A stretch of DNA of 9,265 bases from Halalkalibacterium halodurans (GTDB lineage: Bacteria > Bacillota > Bacilli > Bacillales > Bacillaceae_D), in NCBI RefSeq assembly GCF_004376175.1, contig NZ_SNUY01000098.1, positions 1 to 9,265 on the forward strand. The letters are read 5' to 3'. The notes below the pieces were generated by a model that was not told the origin of the DNA, searched no databases, and was given only the letters and a program-made list of their open reading frames with translations. The position numbers and the translations under genes are program-made. This document shows positions 1 to 9,265 of this stretch, one piece after another. Numbering within the stretch: position 1 is the first letter of the stretch; every line of letters begins with the position of its first letter.

Positions 1-846
1 ATAGAATTGTTCTTCAGCCTGTGAGTGAGTGAAGGACCGGTAGATTGCCTTCAGATCTTCAGCGACTTCTTCTCGATCCTTCTTACGCACACGATTTAAG
101 GTGTGTCGTACTTTGTGTACCACACAACGCTGGACATCTGCTTTCGGATAAAGGCTTTTAAAAGCTTCTTCTAAGCCAGGAAGTCCATCAAATACACCGA
201 GTAAGACTTCCTTCAGCCCACGTTGATAGAGGTCTTGAAGCATCTCTTGCCAACCAAGAGCACTCTCTTGACCACCAATGTAGAAACCTAACAGTTCACG
301 ATATCCTTCTACAGTGACTCCAATGGCAAAGTAAATCACTTCGTTCGCCACGGTGTCACGGCGGAGTTTGATATACATGCCATCCAGATATAGCACAGAA
401 TAGCGTGGGTGTAATTCGCGTTGCTGCCACGCCTGGATATCTTCCATGGCCACTTCCGTGATATTACTGATGGTCGTGGCAGAGTAAGAAGAACCGAGAA
501 TGCGTTCAATGAACTTCCCTACTTCACGGGTACTCATGCCACTTTGATACATCTTGATAATGGTTTCCTCAAGCCATCCATCTCGACGTTGGTAAGGAGC
601 AAAGAGCTGAGTTTGAAATTCACCTCGGCGATCTCGTGGTACTGATAATTCTTCGATTTTGCCGTATCTCGTGTCTAATGAACGTTTATAATATCCATTT
701 TTGCTGTTTGGATGATTAGGTCTTTCAACTTTCAAGTAGTTATCCAGTTCTGCTTTCATGATGATTTCAAGTCTTTCTTGAATAAATGATTTTATGATTT
801 CTTCCAGTTGATTTGTGAAGTCGGATTTGTTTATACTTGATGACAT
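1..846 (-). CDS. IS256-family (Mutator-type) DDE transposase, N-terminal 282 codons; the C-terminal part lies beyond the left window edge
   Basis: The reverse-complement reading frame is open from ATG (complement of 844..846) to position 1. It translates MSSSINKSDFTNQLEEIIKSFIQERLEIIMKAELDNYLKVERPNHPNSKNGYYKRSLDTRYGKIEELSVPRDRRGEFQTQLFAPYQRR...SVLYLDGMYIKLRRD...LLGVFDGLPGLEEAF...VQRCVVHKVRHTLNRV. It carries IS256-family hallmarks: first catalytic D in LYLDGMY (codon 382..384), second D in VFDGLPG (codon 187..189), and the QRCxxHKxR motif. The catalytic E would lie off-window. An AGAGGAG SD sits upstream of the ATG. The ORF is missing from the supplied track only because it is truncated by the window edge. 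Confidence 0.9.
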   Translation of the reverse strand, partial: MSSSINKSDFTNQLEEIIKSFIQERLEIIMKAELDNYLKVERPNHPNSKNGYYKRSLDTRYGKIEELSVPRDRRGEFQTQLFAPYQRRDGWLEETIIKMYQSGMSTREVGKFIERILGSSYSATTISNITEVAMEDIQAWQQRELHPRYSVLYLDGMYIKLRRDTVANEVIYFAIGVTVEGYRELLGFYIGGQESALGWQEMLQDLYQRGLKEVLLGVFDGLPGLEEAFKSLYPKADVQRCVVHKVRHTLNRVRKKDREEVAEDLKAIYRSFTHSQAEEQFY

Positions 847-1053: not shown

Positions 1054-1082
1054 TTGATACGTAGTGGGAAGCTGTTTATAAT
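1054..1082 (+). promoter_or_regulatory. Sigma-A (sigma-70) type promoter of the four-gene operon
   Basis: The -35 TTGATA (1054..1059) and a consensus -10 TATAAT (1077..1082) are separated by exactly 17 nt (1060..1076). The -10 lies 47 nt upstream of the first ATG (1130). No other comparable match was seen between the IS end and the operon. Confidence 0.6.
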
Positions 1083-1129
1083 AAATGATTAATAGAAAAA
1101 TCCCGTAATTCATCAGAGGTGCACTTCAC

Positions 1130-2152
1130 ATGGAAGAGATCAAAAAACGATTAGCAACATATCCAAAAAGAACGATTACGTTAACTCAGCTTGAAGAGTT
1201 GATTAAACCATATATTCATACATACGAACAGTTTGCGGATACGATTTTACAATTGGAGTCAGAGGAAGTATTAGGGATGGTGAAAGCGAAAGGGCGAACG
1301 GCCAGAACGCCATCTCTTGCGTTGCAGTACCGCATTGATAAGAGCTTACTAGCAATGAACCATCACAAGGAGCTCCAACGTTTCCGTCAGCTTCTGCATC
1401 CGTCAATTAATATAGATGACTATTACGGTAAAGATCCTTTGATTTGGCAAAATGACCTAGCTGCTATTTTAAAAGTGGATGAATACATCAAGACATATTC
1501 CTTTCCATCAGAACAAGTGCCTGCACCTGAACGCAGCTTTGAAATAGTCGGGGATGAAAAGTGGCTGGTTGAAAAAGGCGGCAAGGAGCTTCTGGAGCGA
1601 ATTGGTGTATTTGATAAGCTTAAGATTATTCCTGTTTCTGAACCTCTTATGTTTGCGATTAATCCTACGAATATTCAAAATGCTATTCAGCTTCATTTAA
1701 TCGTTGAAAATAAGACAACCTATCAAGGGTTACTGCCTGCCCTCGTTGAAACAGAGTTTTCGACGCTTATTTATGGTAGTGGAAAATCGGTGATTAAAAG
1801 CATTGAGCAGTTTGCGATTCAATACCCGCTCAAGGCAGATCATCAGTTTTTTTATTTTGGTGATTTAGATCGAGAAGGTTTGATGATTTGGTATTCGTTA
1901 ACGAAAAGGCAGCCTGTTCATGTCGCTTTGCCATTCTATCTAGCTTGTTTAGCAAAAGAGGCAGTCACAGGAAAGGATTATCAGCGAGAACACATCGAAG
2001 CTCTTGAGGCTTTTCTTCTTTTCTTTCTGCCAAAACAGCAGAATTTGATCAGAATGCTATTAGCGGAAGGTAAGTATTATCCTCAAGAAATATTAAAGAC
2101 AAAGGAATTACAGATGATTTGGAGGGAAACTGATTGGAAGGCCTTGATGTAA
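1130..2152 (+). CDS. jetD: JetD/MksG-like Toprim nuclease subunit (Wadjet-type, DUF2220-like C-terminal domain), 340 aa
   Basis: ATG at 1130 with an AGAGGTG RBS at 1115..1121. The acidic Toprim residues sit in JetD-like context: LHLIVENKTTY (E193, codon 1706..1708) and FFYFGDLDREGLMIW (D245 at 1862..1864, D247 at 1868..1870), about 52 aa apart as in topo VI-A/JetD Toprim folds. Upstream, the ERSFEIVGDEKWL motif resembles the conserved ER-x-S/F...GDxK segment of DUF2220 proteins. The gene is co-operonic with an SMC-like ATPase. Confidence 0.8.
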   Translation: MEEIKKRLATYPKRTITLTQLEELIKPYIHTYEQFADTILQLESEEVLGMVKAKGRTARTPSLALQYRIDKSLLAMNHHKELQRFRQLLHPSINIDDYYGKDPLIWQNDLAAILKVDEYIKTYSFPSEQVPAPERSFEIVGDEKWLVEKGGKELLERIGVFDKLKIIPVSEPLMFAINPTNIQNAIQLHLIVENKTTYQGLLPALVETEFSTLIYGSGKSVIKSIEQFAIQYPLKADHQFFYFGDLDREGLMIWYSLTKRQPVHVALPFYLACLAKEAVTGKDYQREHIEALEAFLLFFLPKQQNLIRMLLAEGKYYPQEILKTKELQMIWRETDWKALM

Positions 2153-3648
2153 ATGAGTTAACACGTGGATATCGGGAGCGGATCAGACGGCTTGCTCTTT
2201 TTGAACCATTGCATGTATTAGAGAGAAAACGTGAAGAGGATTTAGAAGGTAAGAGCATTGATATGAAAGGATTCGGTCTGCTTACGTTATTATTTTTCTT
2301 TGAGCAAAAACTGATGAGGCAATCGAAAACGGGTGTGAAGCAGCTGGCAGCTTTTTTAGAAAGCGTATCAGAGCAGAAATATCTCCTGTCAGAAGAAAAA
2401 TATGAAGTGCTGGCAAGGTCGATCATTCAAACCTTTCGTCCGACTGACGGAAAGAAGCGTCGTTATTCGTATTATGATTGGGAAGTGAACGAGGAGCAAT
2501 CAATTGAATATTCAATCTTGAAAGCCAATAATTTCGATGTCAAAACGAATACACAATATTATACGTTAGATGAGGACGGGCTTGAGTTACTTTTTGCGAC
2601 GAAGGAGTTTTATAGTGAGTTCCAGCTTTCGATTAATCAGCTGATCCTTAGAAAGCAGTTAGAAAAAGGGGAGTTTAAAGGGGCTCTTAGGCAAATTAAT
2701 GAAATGCGCATTGATGTGGAGACGTTAGAGGAACGTATGATTAGGCTGAAGCATGAGATTCAGCGGAGCATTGTGTCGGAGGAAACATTCGAGCGGTATA
2801 AGCAGCTTCTTGAAGACATTTATGAGCGCCTTGCGCGTGAGGATGAAGAGTTCAAAGAGCTGCGCTTGTTTGTCAAAGAGACGAGAGAGCGCCTTTATTC
2901 AAAAGACGTTCATCAAAAGGAAAGACAAACTTATGGCTACATTCTAAAAATTAATCGTGAGCTAGAGGCGGTTCATTATGACCATTCGCGATTATTAGAT
3001 CAAACGCTAACACTAAAAAACACGACGCTCATCACAGCGCAAGAGTCTCTTTATTATACGGGTATTCATTCTTTTAACTTTGATCAGGATATAGTTTCTC
3101 ATATTGTCTCGGGGCCTTTACCGGTAGAAGCGATGAAAGGGATTCTTCATCCGTTTTTACAAGTTGAAGAGAATGAACGGTGGTCTCCTTTAGCTGTGTT
3201 GGCTGAGCAAAATATTACCGAAGAACGAGAGGGGAAAGTGGATCAAGGATTTATTGAGGTGGGCGAAGAACAATCTGATAATCCACACCGACAGTGGCTG
3301 ACACAAAAGTATAAAGAGCTAATGGAACTTTTCCTACAAGCTTATGGCGAGCAGAAAGGTGGCACACTTTCAGCCTTTATGAATTTTCTTTGTGAAAATG
3401 ATCAAGCTGCTGTGTATGAACAGCGTTATTTCTACGATTTTTGGTTGATTCTCCACCAACGATCGCCGATTATTCAAGGGGATGTCGATGAACAGGAAGG
3501 AAAGACGTTGCTTGGAGAGGCGTTAGCGCTTATTGGAGATCTCACTCTGATCATTAAAGAAGGAAAAGGGATCATTCAAAAAGTGGACCGCTATTCGATT
3601 CAAGAAATGATCATAGAAATGGAGGGAGCAGAGGATGAATTATCCTGA
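2134..3648 (+). CDS. Candidate kleisin subunit (JetA/MksF-like by size and position), 504 aa; no motif recognised directly
   Basis: TTG start at 2134, 8 nt downstream of GGAGG (2121..2125), overlapping the upstream stop by 19 nt. The next in-frame ATG is 43 codons further in and has no RBS. At about 500 aa the size matches JetA/MksF. A central E/R/K-rich helical stretch (LRQINEMRIDVETLEERMIRLKHEIQRS...EDEEFKELRLFVKETRERL) is flanked by mixed alpha/beta-looking ends. The functional call rests on gene neighbourhood, not on sequence identity. Confidence 0.6.
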   Translation: MEGLDVNELTRGYRERIRRLALFEPLHVLERKREEDLEGKSIDMKGFGLLTLLFFFEQKLMRQSKTGVKQLAAFLESVSEQKYLLSEEKYEVLARSIIQTFRPTDGKKRRYSYYDWEVNEEQSIEYSILKANNFDVKTNTQYYTLDEDGLELLFATKEFYSEFQLSINQLILRKQLEKGEFKGALRQINEMRIDVETLEERMIRLKHEIQRSIVSEETFERYKQLLEDIYERLAREDEEFKELRLFVKETRERLYSKDVHQKERQTYGYILKINRELEAVHYDHSRLLDQTLTLKNTTLITAQESLYYTGIHSFNFDQDIVSHIVSGPLPVEAMKGILHPFLQVEENERWSPLAVLAEQNITEEREGKVDQGFIEVGEEQSDNPHRQWLTQKYKELMELFLQAYGEQKGGTLSAFMNFLCENDQAAVYEQRYFYDFWLILHQRSPIIQGDVDEQEGKTLLGEALALIGDLTLIIKEGKGIIQKVDRYSIQEMIIEMEGAEDELS

Positions 3649-4375
3649 GAAAAAAGTCATTCTGGCTTTTCAGCTTTATACAAAACTAGCACGAGATGGG
3701 GTTTCAGACGTACAAGCGGTCCAACTCTATAAAGCGGATGATGATATTCGTGCTCTTCTTGATACGTTTAGCCATCAAGTTGATTGCGTGATCATTCTAA
3801 CGAGTGAACAAATGTTTATGGTACCAAGAACGCGGCTCTCTCCTTTTCATGTCAGCAATGACTGGATTAAGCGACAATATTTGCGTTCTGGTGCGACAAA
3901 TGGAGATATTTATCTGTTATATTTTTCGACGATTATTCTGTTTGGTAGCTTTTATGATACGTATCAAAGTCAAGAGCCGACGAGGCAATTTATTCGTTTA
4001 GATGAATGGGTTCATTTTATACAAGAGCGGATTGATCAATTAAAAGCTCATGATACGGAAGAACTGAAGGAATTAGAAAAGGAATTTTCATATAATTGGT
4101 CTTTAATCATCGAGAAATGGGAAGATATGAATGATATTAAGGAAACAGCTAAAAAACAAAGCGGCAACACCATTAGTCGTCTAAGCTTTATTGATACGGT
4201 GAAACGATTTTTGGTTGATCAAGAGGTAGTTCAAGAGATTGGCAATGATGAAATTACGTTAACAGAAAAAGCGAAAACGATTATTCAGCGCTTCTTTATG
4301 GAAGTGGAGTATAACAAAGGTATTTTTGAATTTATTTACGGGTTTGAAAGGGAGGAAGAGCATGCCGGCGATTAG
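3635..4375 (+). CDS. Candidate KITE subunit (JetB/MksE/MukE-like by size and position), 246 aa; no motif recognised directly
   Basis: ATG at 3635 with GGAGG at 3621..3625 (9-nt spacer), overlapping the upstream gene by 14 nt. The roughly 240 aa length and the position between the putative kleisin and the SMC gene match JetB (DUF4194-type). The acidic C-terminal tail (FEREEEHAGD) and two helix-rich halves are compatible with a tandem winged-helix KITE protein. The function is inferred from context. Confidence 0.55.
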   Translation: MNYPEKKVILAFQLYTKLARDGVSDVQAVQLYKADDDIRALLDTFSHQVDCVIILTSEQMFMVPRTRLSPFHVSNDWIKRQYLRSGATNGDIYLLYFSTIILFGSFYDTYQSQEPTRQFIRLDEWVHFIQERIDQLKAHDTEELKELEKEFSYNWSLIIEKWEDMNDIKETAKKQSGNTISRLSFIDTVKRFLVDQEVVQEIGNDEITLTEKAKTIIQRFFMEVEYNKGIFEFIYGFEREEEHAGD

Positions 4376-7300
4376 TAAAATTCGGTTAACAAACGTTGTA
4401 TATGAAGAAGGGAATAAACGATATAATGATGAGCTATTCTTGTTTGATGGACATAACGGAGCCATTTTACTAGAAAATGGTGGCGGAAAGACGGTTCTCA
4501 TTCAAACAGCATTACAAGCAATCATTCCTCATACGAATTTAGCCGAGCGACAACTGAGAAACACGCTTCTTCTTGAAAATGCCCCTGCTCATATCGCGAT
4601 CGAATGGATCATAAATGAAAAGCCAAGGCGATATGTCGTGACGGCTGTAACCCTTTTTATGACGAAGCATGGGCTTGATTCACTTCGATACGTCTATGAA
4701 TATGAAGCAAATGACCCAAATGGCATTGATGAAATTCCTTTTGTTCGCGGAACTGAGACGAAACGAACGGCGGAACGAGGAGAAATGCAAGACTATTATA
4801 GCCAAATGCGTGAACGTTCCTTTTTGGCTCGTACCTTCCAGACGATTAAGGAATATCGTAGCTTTCTTGAAGAACAGTATCATATTATTGCCAATGAGTG
4901 GGAAAGTGTTGTCAAAATTAATAGCTCTGAAGGTGGAGTTGAGGCTTTTTTTGATGATTGTAAAAACACAAATCAGTTGTTTGATCGTCTGTTAATTCCA
5001 ACGGTTGAACAATCGATTGCTGGTCATGATGAAAAAATGTTTGCGGATATGTTTGAAAAGCAGCATACAAGCTTTAAGCAGTATAAAAAGTTAAAAGAGA
5101 CGATTGAAGAAAATAAACGGATTCAAGAGGAATTAGAAACATTTGTTCAGGCGTTTGAACAGCTTCATCAAAAGAAACTAGAATACAAAAAAACAAAGCA
5201 AAAGGCAAAAGGTACGTGGGAGGAAATCCAGCTGCAAAAGGAAAAGATAAAGGGCGAACAAACGGTTCTGTTTGAAAAGTTGGAGGAATGGAAGCAAAAA
5301 GATTACAAGCACGCCATTAAGTCTGCTTCTTATGAGATTGCCGTTGAAAAATCGACCCTAGACAGCTTAACGAAAGAGTATAATCAAGCTTTTGCGAAAT
5401 ATGCCCAGTTAGAAGAAGAGCTTAAACGTCATCATTTGGACTATTATTCGCTTAAACTAGCGGAGCTAAAGGCCGAGCAGAAGAACTTCAAAGATCAACT
5501 GAAGCATTTTGAAGAGGAAATGGACAAGCTGAACCAGACAGAAGAGCTTGAGGAGCTTGAAGAGCAGCTAGAACAGGCAAAACGCTCGTTGCTAGGCTTT
5601 TTTATCGGGAAAATCGAAAAGATTGAAAAAGAGATACGAGGTCTAACTTTTGAGATGAATCCGATTAAAGAACAGCTGCAACAATCGCAAGACACGTTAA
5701 CTTCATTACAGGAAAAAGAAGCAGAACAGGAAAAGAAGCTTTCTAGTATCAAAAGTCTGCTTGATACGAGAACGAAGGATATGAACCAACTAGAGCAGCA
5801 GCTGTTAGCCAATCCAAAGCAACAGCGTGTCCAAGAAGAAATCGTCAACTGGAATAATCGTTATCAATTTTTAGATGATGAGATGATTCGATTGCAGCAA
5901 GAGGAAAAGCAAATTGAAATTGAAAAAAGTGAGGCGCAAAAGCGAAAAGATGCTTTTCAAGAAGAAAGAGTGAACCGCGAGCGCGAGCGTGATTCCATCG
6001 AATATCAGCTTGATACAATCAACAAAGAGCAGAAAAACTTGATTGCCATCCTTTCTGCTGTTCGTCCGCAATGGGCAGCTCTTGAAAATGTGTATGAAAA
6101 TGAAAGCTCGATTGCTTCAAGACTAGTTGAAACAATTGAAAGATTTGAGAAAGAACGAAGCCATTTACTGTACTTGGAGCGAATCGCGCATCGGTTTGTC
6201 GATGATTATGACAAGCAAAATGTCTTCTTTGGTGATTCCTTTGTCGAGTCCCAGTTAAAGTCTTGGAAAAATCAGTTTGACTTATTACTGACAGGGGTTG
6301 AATATATCCAGTCATTAGATGCGGCTGATTACCTTGAGAAAAAAAGCTATCCTCTCTGGTCGTTAACACTGATAACAACAAATAAATCCAAGGCTATGTT
6401 GCAAGAAAAATTAAACGGTGTAGCGGACCGACTGCAATTTCCAATTCATGTCATGACGACAGAAGAAGCAGCTGTCGCTCATAAAGACGAAAGTCCACAC
6501 ACATGGATAGCACCTCTTCATTGGAGCAAGGGAATGGAAGCTGAATCGTTCCAACATTGGAAAGAAGATATCGCTAAAACAGCGAATGAAACAATCCTTT
6601 CACGGGAGCAAAAAGAAAAGGAAATGAAAAAATGGGAACATGCTCAAAAAGCCTTTGACGACTTTATGGCACAATTTTCATATGAAAAAATGACCAAGTT
6701 ACAGGAAGAGCGCTCAACGATCATACGTCAAATAGAGCGGCTCTCTCTTAGTATCGTAAAAGAAGATGAGCAAATGGAAGACTTACGATCTAAGCTTACT
6801 CTTTTAAAAGATACTGTCAAAAAAGACCAGGATGAAATGAAAGGATTGGAGTGGAAGGTTGAACGAGGAAATCTCTACCTTCAATATAGCCGAGAAGTAG
6901 AAGAGGCGAAAAAGAAAGAGAAGCAGGTAAAGGAAGAGCTTGTGGAACTCGAAAAAGAAGTAGTTAACGTCAAACTCCAATATGATGCTTTATTTGAACA
7001 AAAGGCAGAGCTAGACAAAAGAATCGGCTCTTTAAATACGGAATTAAGCATCTTAAAACGTGATGAACAGTTTATTGCTGTTCAACCCCTTACGCCACTA
7101 TTTTCAGGTGAGGGCAAGCAGATGATTCAAGAGAAAATTCGCAACCTAGAATTTAAAATTCGAGCCATTCAAGTCAGTTACGGAGAATGGAATGCGAAAT
7201 TAGAAAACGCAAAGGCTGGTATAGAACGGACGAGTAAGGCAATGGATGAGTTGCGCACCGAACATGGACAGCTTGATGAGGATGTGCTTTTTCCAAGTGA

Positions 7301-8777
7301 CGGGATGCAATTGTTGAAGGATCTTTGGGAGAAAATAGAAAAGACGGAGAACCAAGTTGACTCTCTCAATCAAGAGGTGAAGCAAAAATCATCTGCAAAG
7401 GAAAAGCAAGAAGGAAAGTGGGAAGCTAAGGTCGAGCAATTTAGAGAAAAGTATCCTGACGACTCAATCTTTGAATTTACCACGGCATTAGCGGAAGTAA
7501 AGGAAGAATTAAAGAGTGCAGCATTAACGTTAAAAGAAAGCAAAAGCTACCTTGAACAAGAGAAGAACAGAATGAGACAAGAGCTTGCAAGCATTGAGGG
7601 AGCTGAACGTGGCTTAGAACGTTTTATCGAAAAGCATCACTTTAATGCACCAGATATTGAGGCCATCTCGTTGAATTCAGAAGAAAGCAGAACGTTCACG
7701 TATCAACGTAAACCATTTGTTGACGCGATTATTCGTGAGCTCGAACAAGTGAAGGAAGCATTGCAAGGTGAGAATGAGAAAGTCGAGCGTGAAAAGCAGT
7801 CCTTTAGAGAATTTAGCCAAACGATTAGTGATATAAAGATGCGGCAGATGGCTGAAAATGGTATTGAATATAAACGAACGTACGAAGACTTAATCGATTT
7901 TAAGAAAAACATGCTTATAAGTGTTGAGAGAGCGACCAATTATGCAAATGAATATATTCGTCAAAAAGATACAGAGCTGCAAGCCTTTATTAATCAGATT
8001 CATGCTCACTTAAAAACGCTCGTTGAGGAATTAAAACAAATTCCTAAAAAGACGCGAGTGAAAGTAGAAAATGATTGGAAACAAATTTTTACGTTTGCGA
8101 TTCCAGAATGGGAAGAGGAAGACGGAAAAAATCGGATTCGTGATTATATTGAATGGATTCTAGAGCAGCTAGAATCTGAGCGGTTCCTCAATGATCAAGG
8201 GATGCAAGATGATGGCAAAGTCAGAAAAGAAATTGATATGTGGCTGCAATCCAAGCAGTTACTCAGATGGGTTATGAAAAATGAAGAGATGAAAGTGAAT
8301 TGCCGCAAAGTGACAAATGATAACAAAGTCACGACAAGGTCTTATTCGTGGGAACAAAGTAACGTATGGTCTGGTGGAGAAAAATGGAGTAAGAACATGA
8401 CGCTCTTTTTGGGCATCCAAAATTATATTGCGGAGAAAAAGCAGCACATCCAACCAAACATGAAACGTCACAGAGCGGTAATTTTAGACAATCCGTTTGG
8501 AAAAGCTTCAAGTGATCACGTTTTAAGCCCGGTCTTTTTTGTCGCTGAACAACTAGGATTCCAAATTATTGCCCTAACCGCTCACGCAGAAGGAAAATTC
8601 CTGCAAGACTTTTTCCCAGTCATCTATAGCTGCCGCTTACGTGAATCAGTCGACTCTTCTAAAAAAGTGATGACAAAAGAAAAATGGCTGCACCATGCCT
8701 ACTTCCAGGACCATGAACCTAAATCAATGGACAGACTCGGAGAAAGTGAGCAGATGGTGTTGTTTGAGTTTGAGTAG
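4362..8777 (+). CDS. jetC: MukB/JetC-like SMC-family ATPase with very long coiled-coil arms, 1471 aa
   Basis: The preferred start is ATG 4362, with GGAGG at 4351..4355 (6-nt spacer) and a 14-nt overlap with the upstream stop. The track's TTG at 4326 has no RBS.
- N-terminal head: ISKIRLTNVVY...GAILLENGGGKTVLIQTA, Walker A NGGGKT at 4476..4493 (K43).
- C-terminal head: signature SGGE at 8370..8381 (S1337), Walker B VILDN at 8478..8492 (D1376-N1377), D-loop-like ASSD, and H-loop ALTAH (H1408, 8583..8585).
- Between the heads: about 1000 aa of E/K/Q/L-rich heptad-like sequence, interrupted by a globular Cys-free segment at about 6040..6560 (putative hinge). Confidence 0.85.
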   Translation: MPAISKIRLTNVVYEEGNKRYNDELFLFDGHNGAILLENGGGKTVLIQTALQAIIPHTNLAERQLRNTLLLENAPAHIAIEWIINEKPRRYVVTAVTLFMTKHGLDSLRYVYEYEANDPNGIDEIPFVRGTETKRTAERGEMQDYYSQMRERSFLARTFQTIKEYRSFLEEQYHIIANEWESVVKINSSEGGVEAFFDDCKNTNQLFDRLLIPTVEQSIAGHDEKMFADMFEKQHTSFKQYKKLKETIEENKRIQEELETFVQAFEQLHQKKLEYKKTKQKAKGTWEEIQLQKEKIKGEQTVLFEKLEEWKQKDYKHAIKSASYEIAVEKSTLDSLTKEYNQAFAKYAQLEEELKRHHLDYYSLKLAELKAEQKNFKDQLKHFEEEMDKLNQTEELEELEEQLEQAKRSLLGFFIGKIEKIEKEIRGLTFEMNPIKEQLQQSQDTLTSLQEKEAEQEKKLSSIKSLLDTRTKDMNQLEQQLLANPKQQRVQEEIVNWNNRYQFLDDEMIRLQQEEKQIEIEKSEAQKRKDAFQEERVNRERERDSIEYQLDTINKEQKNLIAILSAVRPQWAALENVYENESSIASRLVETIERFEKERSHLLYLERIAHRFVDDYDKQNVFFGDSFVESQLKSWKNQFDLLLTGVEYIQSLDAADYLEKKSYPLWSLTLITTNKSKAMLQEKLNGVADRLQFPIHVMTTEEAAVAHKDESPHTWIAPLHWSKGMEAESFQHWKEDIAKTANETILSREQKEKEMKKWEHAQKAFDDFMAQFSYEKMTKLQEERSTIIRQIERLSLSIVKEDEQMEDLRSKLTLLKDTVKKDQDEMKGLEWKVERGNLYLQYSREVEEAKKKEKQVKEELVELEKEVVNVKLQYDALFEQKAELDKRIGSLNTELSILKRDEQFIAVQPLTPLFSGEGKQMIQEKIRNLEFKIRAIQVSYGEWNAKLENAKAGIERTSKAMDELRTEHGQLDEDVLFPSDGMQLLKDLWEKIEKTENQVDSLNQEVKQKSSAKEKQEGKWEAKVEQFREKYPDDSIFEFTTALAEVKEELKSAALTLKESKSYLEQEKNRMRQELASIEGAERGLERFIEKHHFNAPDIEAISLNSEESRTFTYQRKPFVDAIIRELEQVKEALQGENEKVEREKQSFREFSQTISDIKMRQMAENGIEYKRTYEDLIDFKKNMLISVERATNYANEYIRQKDTELQAFINQIHAHLKTLVEELKQIPKKTRVKVENDWKQIFTFAIPEWEEEDGKNRIRDYIEWILEQLESERFLNDQGMQDDGKVRKEIDMWLQSKQLLRWVMKNEEMKVNCRKVTNDNKVTTRSYSWEQSNVWSGGEKWSKNMTLFLGIQNYIAEKKQHIQPNMKRHRAVILDNPFGKASSDHVLSPVFFVAEQLGFQIIALTAHAEGKFLQDFFPVIYSCRLRESVDSSKKVMTKEKWLHHAYFQDHEPKSMDRLGESEQMVLFEFE

Positions 8778-8810
8778 GGATAACATGGCTGTCCAATTGA
8801 AATATGTTGA

Positions 8811-8850
8811 AAAGAGGATCAATTGTCTTGTAGGCAGTTGATTCTTTTTG
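8811..8850 (+). terminator. Rho-independent terminator of the operon
   Basis: It lies about 40 nt after the TAG stop (8775..8777). GGATCAATTGTC (8816..8827) pairs with GGCAGTTGATTC (8833..8844) as a 12-bp stem with 3 G-U wobbles. The loop is TTGTA (8828..8832). A TTTTT run follows (8845..8849) and an A-rich tract precedes (8810..8815). The stem is AT-rich, so its strength is moderate. Confidence 0.55.
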
Positions 8851-9079
8851 TCATGAGGAATGGAGTTACGATGGTTTTGGAGTAATGTAGTGAAGTAGTG
8901 AATGTTTTCATTTATTAAGAGTAATTATTATACCTTCCATAAAAGCATATGGTTCACTGACAGAAATGTATTAGGAAGGAATGTTTTGTTGCCATTCTTT
9001 TCATTATTGGAAAAATCTAATAAACTAGATAAGAATAATAGAAAACTAGTGTCCTACGATAGAAAGGAGGGAAAATGCA

Positions 9080-9160
9080 ATGAATCAGTTTATAAATAAC
9101 CTATTTATTACGGCACTTGTGACGTTTATTTTATTGTTTGAGATTCATCACCACTTTTAG
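9080..9160 (+). CDS. Candidate 26-aa hydrophobic small protein (MNQFINNLFITALVTFILLFEIHHHF)
   Basis: ATG at 9080 lies 9 nt downstream of a near-perfect SD, AAAGGAGGG (9063..9071). The peptide has one predicted transmembrane-length hydrophobic stretch and ends at TAG 9158..9160. It is below the 60-aa cut-off of the supplied track. No homolog was recognised, so this is only a candidate. Confidence 0.3.
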   Translation: MNQFINNLFITALVTFILLFEIHHHF

Positions 9161-9243
9161 TGATTTAAACAAAAAAGAAGAAAACACTCACAGATTCCTG
9201 GCAATAATGTTAGTGCTAACCAAACAAACCAGGAGGGTCTGAA

Positions 9244-9265
9244 AGTGTTTTCCGTATCACTAGAA
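9244..9265 (+). CDS. Possible 5' end of a downstream gene (MFSVSLE...), truncated by the window edge
   Basis: GTG at 9244 lies 8 nt downstream of GGAGG (9231..9235) and the frame is open to the window end. Only 7 codons are visible, so neither product nor reality can be judged. Confidence 0.2.

What the first reader, a model, noticed from the sequence alone, without database searches (positions are those of the whole stretch)
1054..8850. Compact jetD-first Toprim / kleisin-size / KITE-size / SMC cassette: a divergent Wadjet-like (MksBEFG-like) plasmid-restriction system
Seen in sequence:
- Four plus-strand genes (340, 504, 246 and 1471 aa) sit behind a single TTGATA-17-TATAAT promoter and end at a single terminator.
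- Every gene junction overlaps (19, 14 and 14 nt).
- The first product carries Toprim E...DxD motifs in JetD-like context.
- The last product is a split ABC/SMC head with about 1000 aa of coiled coil and a hinge.

Established knowledge: Wadjet/MksBEFG systems consist of kleisin JetA (about 500 aa), KITE JetB (about 240 aa), the SMC ATPase JetC and the Toprim nuclease JetD. They restrict small circular plasmids by loop extrusion followed by cleavage. As I recall the described systems, the genes run jetA-jetB-jetC-jetD (mksF-E-B-G).

Inference: this operon has the same parts list, but the nuclease gene is first and the SMC gene last. The SMC is about a third longer than the roughly 1100 aa I recall for characterised JetC. 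I cannot match the two middle proteins to any known motif. It may therefore be an undescribed Wadjet subtype, or a sister SMC-nuclease defence system that standard defence-finder models score poorly.
Basis: partly seen in the sequence, partly recalled or inferred. Interest (0 to 1): 0.85.

Follow-up and report, generated by a model that had tools for sequence, protein, structure and literature searches.

The report
Ordinary type III Wadjet anti-plasmid operon
This is an intact copy of the already catalogued type III Wadjet (JetD-JetA-JetB-JetC) plasmid-restriction system of Bacillus-like bacteria, so the nuclease-first gene order and long SMC protein are normal for the type, not a new subtype.

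Summary
Four overlapping plus-strand genes (340, 504, 246 and 1471 aa) lie between one strong promoter-like site and one terminator hairpin.

All four proteins match PADLOC's type III Wadjet models end to end (JetD3 1.6e-114, JetA3 2.3e-236, JetB3 1.4e-126, JetC3 E=0, 2014 bits). Gene order D-A-B-C holds in 78 of 80 related genomes. It also holds in four distant members from Ammoniphilus, Selenomonas, Clostridium perfringens and Pontibacillus.

Predicted folds support the assignments. The 504-aa protein is MukF-like (kleisin) and the 246-aa protein is MukE/JetB-like (KITE). JetD keeps invariant Toprim residues E193, D245 and D247. Identical or near-identical proteins are already in NCBI (Halalkalibacterium/Halalkalibacter).

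Most likely function, by homology with tested systems: ATP-dependent SMC scanning of small circular DNA, then JetD cleavage.

One point may deserve follow-up. JetC's Walker B motif reads D-N-P-F, with Asn in place of the catalytic Glu. This held in every type III JetC examined. I found no mention of it in the papers available.

No type III structure is in the PDB.

The parts
1054..1082 (+). Sigma-70-type promoter-like site TTGATA-17 nt-TATAAT, 48 nt upstream of the jetD ATG
   Evidence: Matches 11 of 12 positions and is the best site in the window. Both hexamers are identical in the closest relatives L001 and L002. Function as a promoter is inferred, not shown.
1130..2152 (+). jetD (type III), 340 aa: Toprim nuclease effector. 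Catalytic E193 is at nt 1706-1708 and D245/D247 at nt 1862-1870.
   Evidence: PADLOC JetD3 PDLC00592, 1.6e-114, residues 2-334 of 340; weaker matches to JetD1 and JetD2 models over the Toprim core. Pfam JetD_C PF09983, 33.1 bits against a cutoff of 22. E193, D245 and D247 are invariant in 24 relatives. NCBI names relatives 'Wadjet anti-phage system protein JetD domain-containing protein'.
2134..3648 (+). jetA (type III), 504 aa, TTG start: MukF-like kleisin
   Evidence: PADLOC JetA3 PDLC00566, 2.3e-236, residues 1-502. No Pfam or NCBIfam family. AlphaFold2 model (pLDDT 71.5): N-terminal winged-helix region, long helical bundle, disordered linker at 307-381, and a C-terminal helix/strand domain (384-497) that I read as a winged helix. 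Best PDB fold matches are MukF chains: 7nz2_C1 at 3.7e-4, then 9gm9_D, 9gm7_D, 3rpu_X, 3euh_B and 1t98.
3635..4375 (+). jetB (type III), 246 aa: MukE/JetB-like KITE subunit (Pfam DUF6063)
   Evidence: PADLOC JetB3 PDLC00575, 1.4e-126. Pfam DUF6063, 1.7e-94. AlphaFold2 model has pLDDT 81. The top 18 PDB fold matches are all JetB (8as8_C, 8dk1_E/F) or MukE chains, with probability 0.47-1.00 (0.87 or higher for 16 of the 18) and E from 1.8e-3 upward.
4362..8777 (+). jetC (type III), 1471 aa: SMC-like ABC ATPase. Walker A G40-T44 is at nt 4479-4493. Signature SGGEK (1337-1341) is at nt 8370-8384. Walker B AVILD-N (1372-1377) is at nt 8475-8492, with Asn where the catalytic Glu normally sits.
   Evidence: PADLOC JetC3 PDLC00582, E=0, 2014 bits, residues 1-1469. 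No Pfam family on the full-length protein. The C-terminal head alone weakly matches PF13558 SbcC_Walker_B across the signature and Walker B motifs (E=0.01; 16 of 24 relatives match, best 2.3e-4). Conservation and composition fit a head-arm-hinge-arm-head layout. D1376-N1377 is invariant in 72 of 72 orthologs.
8811..8849 (+). Intrinsic-terminator-like hairpin (18 bp stem, 3-nt loop) ending in a U-run, 34 nt after the jetC stop codon
   Evidence: RNA fold of 8778-8860: centroid -22.7 kcal/mol, z = -3.9, 0 of 200 shuffles as stable. The simple pattern scan missed it.

Best explanation
The cassette is an intact chromosomal type III Wadjet operon, jetD-jetA-jetB-jetC, in a Halalkalibacterium/Halalkalibacter-like Bacillaceae genome.

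Shown here:
- One transcription-unit-like layout with translationally coupled genes.
- Full-length membership of all four products in the type III Jet families.
- A MukF-like fold for JetA and a MukE/JetB-like fold for JetB.
- An invariant Toprim E...DxD in JetD.
- ABC/SMC head motifs in JetC.

Inferred from type I and II biochemistry and from in vivo work on the Bacillus thuringiensis type III operon:
- JetA dimerises two JetC2-JetA-JetB2 motor units.
- These load on DNA and translocate or extrude in an ATP-dependent way.
- On small circular DNA (below roughly 50-100 kb) the motors stall against each other.
- The stalled complex presents bent DNA to a JetD dimer.
- The JetD Toprim site (E193, D245, D247 with a divalent metal ion) cuts the DNA regardless of sequence, and the linearised plasmid is lost.

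Caveat: type III JetC has Asn instead of the Walker B catalytic Glu. Its ATPase cycle may therefore differ from types I and II.
For: - PADLOC type III models match end to end: JetD3 1.6e-114, JetA3 2.3e-236, JetB3 1.4e-126, JetC3 E=0.
- Pfam JetD_C scores above its cutoff and DUF6063 scores 1.7e-94.
- The same D-A-B-C order with tight junctions is found in 78 of 80 genomes of different Bacillales species. It is also found in Ammoniphilus, Selenomonas, a C. perfringens 404-kb plasmid and a Pontibacillus 898-kb plasmid.
- Fold matches: JetB to JetB/MukE and JetA to MukF.
- Toprim residues are invariant, and so is the Walker A lysine.
- Promoter, ribosome-binding sites and terminator are in place.
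- Literature: Wadjet is classified into types I-III by sequence and operon organisation (PMC10586767).
- Literature: the B. thuringiensis operon, shown as the type III example by Roisne-Hamelin et al., blocks pHCMC05 and pC194 transformation in B. subtilis. A JetD Toprim Glu mutation reverts this (bioRxiv 10.1101/2022.10.04.510915).
- Only two plasmid records carry a type III JetC, and both exceed 400 kb. This fits a system that attacks small circles.
Against: - No experiment exists on this locus or on any close ortholog.
- No type III structure is solved, and neither single sequences nor profiles link the proteins to any PDB chain. The kleisin and KITE assignments therefore rest on predicted folds with marginal Foldseek E-values (about 1e-3) and low TM-scores.
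- JetC lacks the canonical Walker B Glu: D-N-P-F in 72 of 72 orthologs, in 141 of the 150 listed representatives (the other 9 are fragments or lack the pattern), in 3 distant loci, and as D-N-P-F-A in C. perfringens. Transferring loop extrusion from types I and II is therefore less secure.
- I could not retrieve the B. thuringiensis reference operon to compare it directly.
- The Glu298 numbering quoted for its JetD does not fit a protein of about 345 aa.
Confidence: 0.9

Rival explanations
1. It is a sister SMC-nuclease system that is distinct from Wadjet and only superficially similar. It would have a different sensing mechanism, for example ATP-binding-driven clamping rather than loop extrusion.
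For: - Apart from the JetD Toprim core, no protein shows sequence-level similarity to type I/II Jet proteins, MukBEF or any PDB chain.
- JetC has D-N instead of D-E in Walker B in every family member examined.
- JetA3 and full-length JetC3 have no Pfam family.
Against: - The family is already defined and named Wadjet type III in PADLOC and in the literature.
- The predicted folds of JetA and JetB match MukF and MukE/JetB specifically.
- JetD matches JetD_C and the JetD1/JetD2 models.
- The B. thuringiensis operon, shown as the type III example by Roisne-Hamelin et al., gives the same plasmid-restriction phenotype as types I and II.
- At most this is a mechanistic variant inside a known type, not a new system.
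Confidence: 0.07
2. It is a chromosome-organising MksBEF-like condensin with an accessory protein, not a defence system.
For: - JetA and JetB have MukF and MukE folds.
- The locus in relatives sits among housekeeping genes (sugar kinase, amidase, symporter) rather than in a large defence island.
Against: - A co-transcribed Toprim JetD is the feature that separates Wadjet from MksBEF, and it is present here with an intact active site.
- An HNH nuclease gene in the closest relatives and an IS256-family transposase here flank the operon.
- The B. thuringiensis (type III) operon restricts plasmids.
Confidence: 0.02
3. It is a decaying or inactive copy, disrupted by the neighbouring insertion sequence.
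For: - A truncated IS256/Mutator-family transposase gene lies at 1-846 on the minus strand.
- Relative to L001 and L002, about 870 bp carrying an HNH gene is missing just upstream of the promoter.
- Decay of this system does occur: L046 has a frameshifted jetA, no jetB and only the last 255 aa of jetC.
Against: - All four reading frames are full length and 93-100% identical to relatives.
- All motifs are intact.
- The promoter, ribosome-binding sites and terminator are retained.
Confidence: 0.03

Closest known systems
Wadjet type III (JetABCD-III). The reference operon is from Bacillus thuringiensis (Doron et al. 2018, recalled from memory; tested again in bioRxiv 10.1101/2022.10.04.510915).
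   Same: All four proteins match the PADLOC type III models over their full length. The protein sizes also match the type III pattern (JetD about 345 aa, JetA about 500, JetB about 245, JetC about 1470). JetB is DUF6063. The arms are long, as noted for Wadjet-III in PMC12647877.
   Different: Nothing was found that sets this locus apart from the type. I could not retrieve the B. thuringiensis sequence itself, so identity to it is unknown. Identity to Halalkalibacter nanhaiisediminis is 93-98% and to other Bacillales 40-89%.
Wadjet type I (E. coli GF4-3, P. aeruginosa PA14, B. cereus Q1 JetABCD)
   Same: Same four roles: kleisin, KITE, SMC ATPase and Toprim nuclease. JetB3 folds like JetB-I (8as8_C, 8dk1_E/F). 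The JetD Toprim core matches JetD1 models (5.6e-9).
   Different: - Gene order is A-B-C-D in type I and D-A-B-C here.
- No Pfam DUF3375, DUF4194, AAA_29 or DUF3322 match here. PF13558 appears only sub-threshold on the isolated C-terminal head.
- JetD is shorter (340 aa here; type I models are 382-409 positions long).
- JetC is longer.
- Walker B is D-N here, whereas type I has a catalytic Glu (E. coli JetC E1022Q is ATPase-dead).
Wadjet type II (Neobacillus vireti JetABCD, PDB 9QE0)
   Same: Firmicute SMC-plus-Toprim plasmid restriction system. According to PMC12647877, both types II and III have long arms and a hinge without a channel.
   Different: Type II has a tandem-KITE JetB of about 384 residues (9qe0_D), which matches JetB3 only weakly (E=0.28). 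There are no DUF2397, DUF2398 or DUF2399 matches here. The JetD2 model match is limited to the Toprim core (2.6e-6).
MukBEF / MksBEF condensins
   Same: The JetA3 model matches MukF and the JetB3 model matches MukE. The JetC N-terminal head profile touches the MukB head only at noise level (1qhl_A, E=0.67).
   Different: Those systems have no Toprim partner. Their role is chromosome organisation. Their Walker B motif is the canonical D-E.

Membership tests
Wadjet type III (JetABCD-III) | Full-length matches of all four products to the type III JetA, JetB, JetC and JetD profile models | tested here: met
   PADLOC PDLC00592, 00566, 00575 and 00582: 1.6e-114, 2.3e-236, 1.4e-126 and E=0, each covering essentially the whole protein and the whole model.
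Wadjet type III (JetABCD-III) | The four genes are co-directional in one operon, with the order typical of the type | tested here: met
   One promoter-like site, overlaps of 19, 14 and 14 nt, and one terminator. D-A-B-C order is seen in 78 of 80 related genomes and in 4 distant members. The published operon drawing for type III is a figure that I could not read.
Wadjet (any type) | JetD: Toprim-domain nuclease (Pfam JetD_C/DUF2220) with a conserved acidic Glu and a DxD motif | tested here: met
   PF09983 scores 33.1 bits against a cutoff of 22. E193, D245 and D247 are invariant in 24 sequences.
Wadjet (any type) | JetA: MukF-like kleisin with an N-terminal winged-helix dimerisation region, a helical bundle, a flexible linker and a C-terminal winged helix | tested here: met
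   The AlphaFold2 model has that layout in its secondary-structure and confidence profile (pLDDT 71.5; the winged-helix labels are my reading). Its best PDB matches are MukF chains (3.7e-4 to 0.12, probability up to 1.00). This is fold-level evidence of moderate strength. No sequence-level link was found.
Wadjet (any type) | JetB: KITE subunit (tandem winged helix, MukE-like) | tested here: met
   Model pLDDT is 81. The top 18 PDB matches are exclusively JetB or MukE chains. E-values are marginal (1.8e-3 or higher) and TM-scores are low, which I attribute to different relative orientation of the two domains.
Wadjet (any type) | JetC: SMC-type ABC ATPase with Walker A, signature motif, Walker B Asp, two long arms and a hinge | tested here: met
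   GGGK43T, SGGEK (1337-1341) and AVILD1376 are present. There is a weak PF13558 match over the signature and Walker B motifs (16 of 24 relatives). Conservation and composition fit head-arm-hinge-arm-head. The arms and hinge were not modelled structurally.
Canonical SMC/ABC ATPases (including JetC types I and II) | Catalytic Glu immediately after the Walker B Asp (hhhhD-E) | tested here: not met
   The residue is Asn1377. This holds in 72 of 72 orthologs, in the 141 of 150 listed representatives where the pattern was found, and in all 4 distant loci, including C. perfringens with 'IMDNPFA'. It is a property of every type III member examined, so it does not argue against type III membership.
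Wadjet (any type) | Restriction of small circular plasmids that depends on the JetC ATPase and the JetD nuclease | not testable with these tools
   The only evidence is by homology with the B. thuringiensis (type III) operon tested in B. subtilis.
Wadjet type I / type II | Type I: DUF3375 (JetA), DUF4194 (JetB), AAA_29 plus SbcC_Walker_B (JetC), DUF3322 plus DUF2220 (JetD). Type II: DUF2397, DUF2398 and DUF2399. (Domain list recalled from memory.) | tested here: not met
   None of these Pfam families is found except JetD_C. There are no PADLOC JetA1/2 or JetB1/2 matches. The JetC2 match (7.5e-5) lies in the arm region only.
Lamassu and other SMC-like defence systems | An LmuB-type SMC-like protein paired with an LmuA effector and LmuC | tested here: not met
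   There are no Lamassu model matches for any of the four proteins at E up to 1. Apart from one sub-threshold Type I specificity-subunit hit on JetB (E=0.0088), all listed matches are Jet models.

The most novel reading that the evidence does not exclude
Type III JetC is a natural Walker-B variant SMC: D-N-P-F-G replaces hhhhD-E in every member examined. If the Asn truly occupies the catalytic-base position and no other residue substitutes for it, type III Wadjet would sense plasmids with an ATPase cycle unlike that of types I and II or other SMC complexes. Examples would be very slow hydrolysis, a different catalytic residue, or clamping driven by ATP binding. I found no mention of this in the papers available. 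It concerns the whole type, not this locus.
Probability: 0.25. Interest if true: 0.55.

Novelty: already known. Interest (0 to 1): 0.15.

Why it matters
As a discovery it matters little. The locus would be called Wadjet type III by PADLOC, and identical proteins are already in NCBI.

There is practical value. A strain carrying it is likely to resist transformation with small plasmids, so deleting jetD should help genetic work. This has been shown for type I and type II systems in other Bacillota.

There is also wider value:
- Type III remains the least studied Wadjet type, with no solved structure.
- Its SMC subunit lacks the canonical catalytic glutamate.
- Public annotation of its kleisin ('replicative DNA helicase') and KITE ('non-ribosomal peptide synthetase module') is misleading.

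Tried and rejected
- Sequence searches of all four proteins against PDB chains gave only noise or generic P-loop matches. The same was true of profiles of JetD, JetB, JetA and both JetC heads. No solved relative could be used directly.
- NCBIfam gave nothing useful. It returned only sub-threshold SMC hits, some of them clearly in the coiled-coil arms.
- Rfam and tRNA scans of the window found nothing.
- A near-identity search of the whole window against plasmids found nothing. A plasmid origin was therefore rejected, and relatives are chromosomal contigs.
- I tried to read Doron et al. 2018 for the original type III definition, but it is not held.
- Text searches for an explicit statement of type III gene order found only figure legends. 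Gene order was therefore established empirically from 84 loci.
- A literature search for 'DNPFG' gave one irrelevant paper, and 'Wadjet' plus 'Walker B' plus 'asparagine' gave three papers whose titles and abstracts concern other defence systems; I did not open them.
- The idea that the two order 'exceptions' reflect alternative architectures was rejected. L015 is cut by a contig end, and L046 is a decayed locus.

Full report
**Observation**

The window holds four plus-strand ORFs:
- 1130-2152, 340 aa
- 2134-3648, 504 aa, TTG start
- 3635-4375, 246 aa
- 4362-8777, 1471 aa from the ATG that relatives also use

The junctions overlap by 19, 14 and 14 nt. Each start follows a GGAGG-like ribosome-binding site inside the preceding gene.

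TTGATA-17-TATAAT at 1054-1082 is the only 11-of-12 promoter match in the window. It is identical in the two closest relatives.

The pattern scan listed no terminator after the last gene. Folding 8778-8860 gives an 18-bp hairpin with a U-run at 8811-8849 (z = -3.9).

**What it is**

PADLOC's models for type III Wadjet match all four products over their full length:

| Product | Model | E-value |
|---|---|---|
| 340 aa | JetD3 | 1.6e-114 |
| 504 aa | JetA3 | 2.3e-236 |
| 246 aa | JetB3 | 1.4e-126 |
| 1471 aa | JetC3 | 0 (2014 bits) |

- Pfam adds JetD_C above its gathering score for the first protein and DUF6063 (1.7e-94) for the third. It finds nothing for the second or fourth.
- The JetD relatives number at least 686 clusters at 90% identity. 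Many of those that carry an NCBI name are called 'Wadjet anti-phage system protein JetD domain-containing protein'.
- 100%-identical JetA and JetB are on record from a 9265-bp contig assigned to Halalkalibacterium halodurans. That contig is evidently this window.
- Halalkalibacter nanhaiisediminis carries a 96%-identical locus.

**Gene order**

A scan of one genome per species returned 80 loci encoding a JetD relative.
- tblastn with the four window proteins shows D-A-B-C on one strand with the same tight junctions in 78 of them.
- The two exceptions are a contig end (L015) and a decayed copy (L046). L046 has a frameshifted jetA, no jetB and only the last 255 aa of jetC.
- The same order is found in distant members: Ammoniphilus and Selenomonas, a 404-kb Clostridium perfringens plasmid and an 898-kb Pontibacillus plasmid.

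Nuclease-first is thus the normal organisation of the type. Reviews state that Wadjet types I-III were defined by sequence similarity and operon organisation (PMC10586767; bioRxiv 10.1101/2025.03.10.642339). Long arms in Wadjet-III are also already noted (PMC12647877).

**Are the middle proteins really kleisin and KITE?**

No sequence or profile search links them to any solved structure, so I modelled them.
- JetB3 (pLDDT 81) has as its top 18 PDB fold matches only JetB chains of E. coli and P. aeruginosa Wadjet and MukE chains.
- JetA3 (pLDDT 71.5) has strands and helices at the N-terminus, a long helical bundle, a disordered linker at 307-381 and a C-terminal helix/strand domain. I read the two end domains as winged helices.
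- Its best matches are MukF chains. The CorA matches lower in the list concern only the long helices.
- E-values are marginal and TM-scores low, but the specificity of the hit lists supports the assignment.

**JetD and JetC**

- JetD keeps E193, D245 and D247 invariant.
- JetC has Walker A GGGK43T, signature SGGEK and a Walker B strand AVILD1376.
- Its C-terminal head weakly matches Pfam SbcC_Walker_B across these motifs, in 16 of 24 relatives.
- Conservation is high in both heads, low in two charged arms poor in proline and glycine, and intermediate in a central region of about 140 aa.

**Mechanism**

By homology, JetA-JetB-JetC forms a dimer of SMC motors that scans DNA using ATP. On small circles the motors stall, and JetD then cleaves.
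- This is established for type I and supported for type II.
- For type III there is only in vivo evidence. The B. thuringiensis operon blocks transformation of B. subtilis by theta-replicating and rolling-circle plasmids, and a JetD Toprim Glu mutation reverts this.
- Nothing has been tested on this locus.
- In keeping with an anti-small-plasmid role, only two plasmid records encode a type III JetC, and both are larger than 400 kb.

**An unexpected detail**

The residue after the Walker B Asp is Asn, not the catalytic Glu of SMC/ABC ATPases. The evidence for D-N-P-F:
- It is invariant in 72 of 72 orthologs.
- It is present in 141 of the 150 listed library representatives, down to about 35% identity. 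The other 9 are fragments or lack the pattern.
- It is present in all four distant loci, including the C. perfringens protein at 27% identity.

In type I the corresponding E1022Q mutant is ATPase-dead. I found no paper that mentions this property of type III. The library is incomplete, however, and specialists may well know it. The motif assignment rests on motif order and spacing and on the weak PF13558 match, not on a structure.

**Surroundings**

- Upstream, 1-846 on the minus strand encodes the first 282 aa of an IS256/Mutator-family transposase that runs off the contig.
- Compared with L001 and L002, the window lacks about 870 bp carrying a 290-aa HNH endonuclease gene. In those genomes that gene sits directly before the jetD promoter.
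- Otherwise the neighbours in L001 are housekeeping genes.
- Downstream of the terminator there are only short ORFs.

**Verdict**

The feature is real, intact and correctly recognised as Wadjet-like. It is an ordinary member of the catalogued type III, and it scores normally against existing defence models. Interest is low. The only lead worth passing on is the family-wide Walker B Asn in JetC-III.

Noticed in passing
window 8475-8492 (JetC aa 1372-1377); also L081-L084 and proteins P0361-P0510: The JetC Walker B motif reads AVILD-N-PFG, with Asn replacing the catalytic Glu of SMC/ABC ATPases. It is invariant in 72 of 72 orthologs, found in 141 of the 150 listed representatives (the other 9 are fragments or lack the pattern), and present in all four distant loci. 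I found no mention in the searchable literature.
   Followed up: partly
window 2134-3648 and 3635-4375: Public names are misleading. NCBI and UniRef call many JetA3 homologs 'replicative DNA helicase'. They call JetB3 homologs 'DUF6063 family protein' or 'non-ribosomal peptide synthetase module'. JGI labels some JetD3 homologs 'TATA-box binding protein' and some JetA3 homologs 'DsrC/TusE'. No helicase or NRPS domain is detectable.
   Followed up: yes
window 1-846, minus strand: This is a 5' fragment (282 aa) of an IS256/Mutator-family transposase gene that runs off the start of the window (Pfam PF00872, 7e-83). It has higher GC (0.44-0.46) than the operon. It probably explains why the contig ends here.
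   Followed up: partly
window about 1040-1042, compared with L001 9041-9911 and L002: The two closest relatives carry a 290-aa HNH endonuclease gene (PF13391; PADLOC HNH, 1.2e-19) directly upstream of the jetD promoter. It is cleanly absent from the window. Whether it works with Wadjet is unknown.
   Followed up: partly
L046 10001-13275 (uncultured Sporolactobacillus MAG): This is a decayed type III locus. jetD is intact, jetA is split across two frames, jetB is missing and only the last 255 aa of jetC remain. A MAG assembly error cannot be excluded.
   Followed up: partly
literature, bioRxiv 10.1101/2022.10.04.510915: The paper gives the B. thuringiensis (type III) JetD Toprim mutant as E298A. 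In this JetD3 the Toprim Glu is residue 193, and all PADLOC JetD3 models are 345-350 positions long. The cause could be different start-codon numbering or a typo. This is unresolved.
   Followed up: no
L083 (C. perfringens pJFP838A, 404 kb) and L084 (Pontibacillus plasmid, 898 kb): These are the only plasmid records with a type III JetC, and both are very large replicons. The Pontibacillus JetC is unusually long at 1705 aa. In that plasmid a MerR-family regulator gene overlaps the start of jetD.
   Followed up: no
L081 3881-4527 (Ammoniphilus): A MazE-antitoxin/Fic gene pair sits immediately upstream of jetD, and a ParE toxin gene lies downstream. In that genome the operon therefore lies among toxin-antitoxin genes.
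   Followed up: no
window 8902-9265: Downstream of the terminator the sequence is AT-rich (GC 0.33) and holds only short ORFs (65, 26 and 34 aa). The 26-aa ORF at 9080-9160 is hydrophobic and follows a GGAGG site. It has no family match.
   Followed up: no
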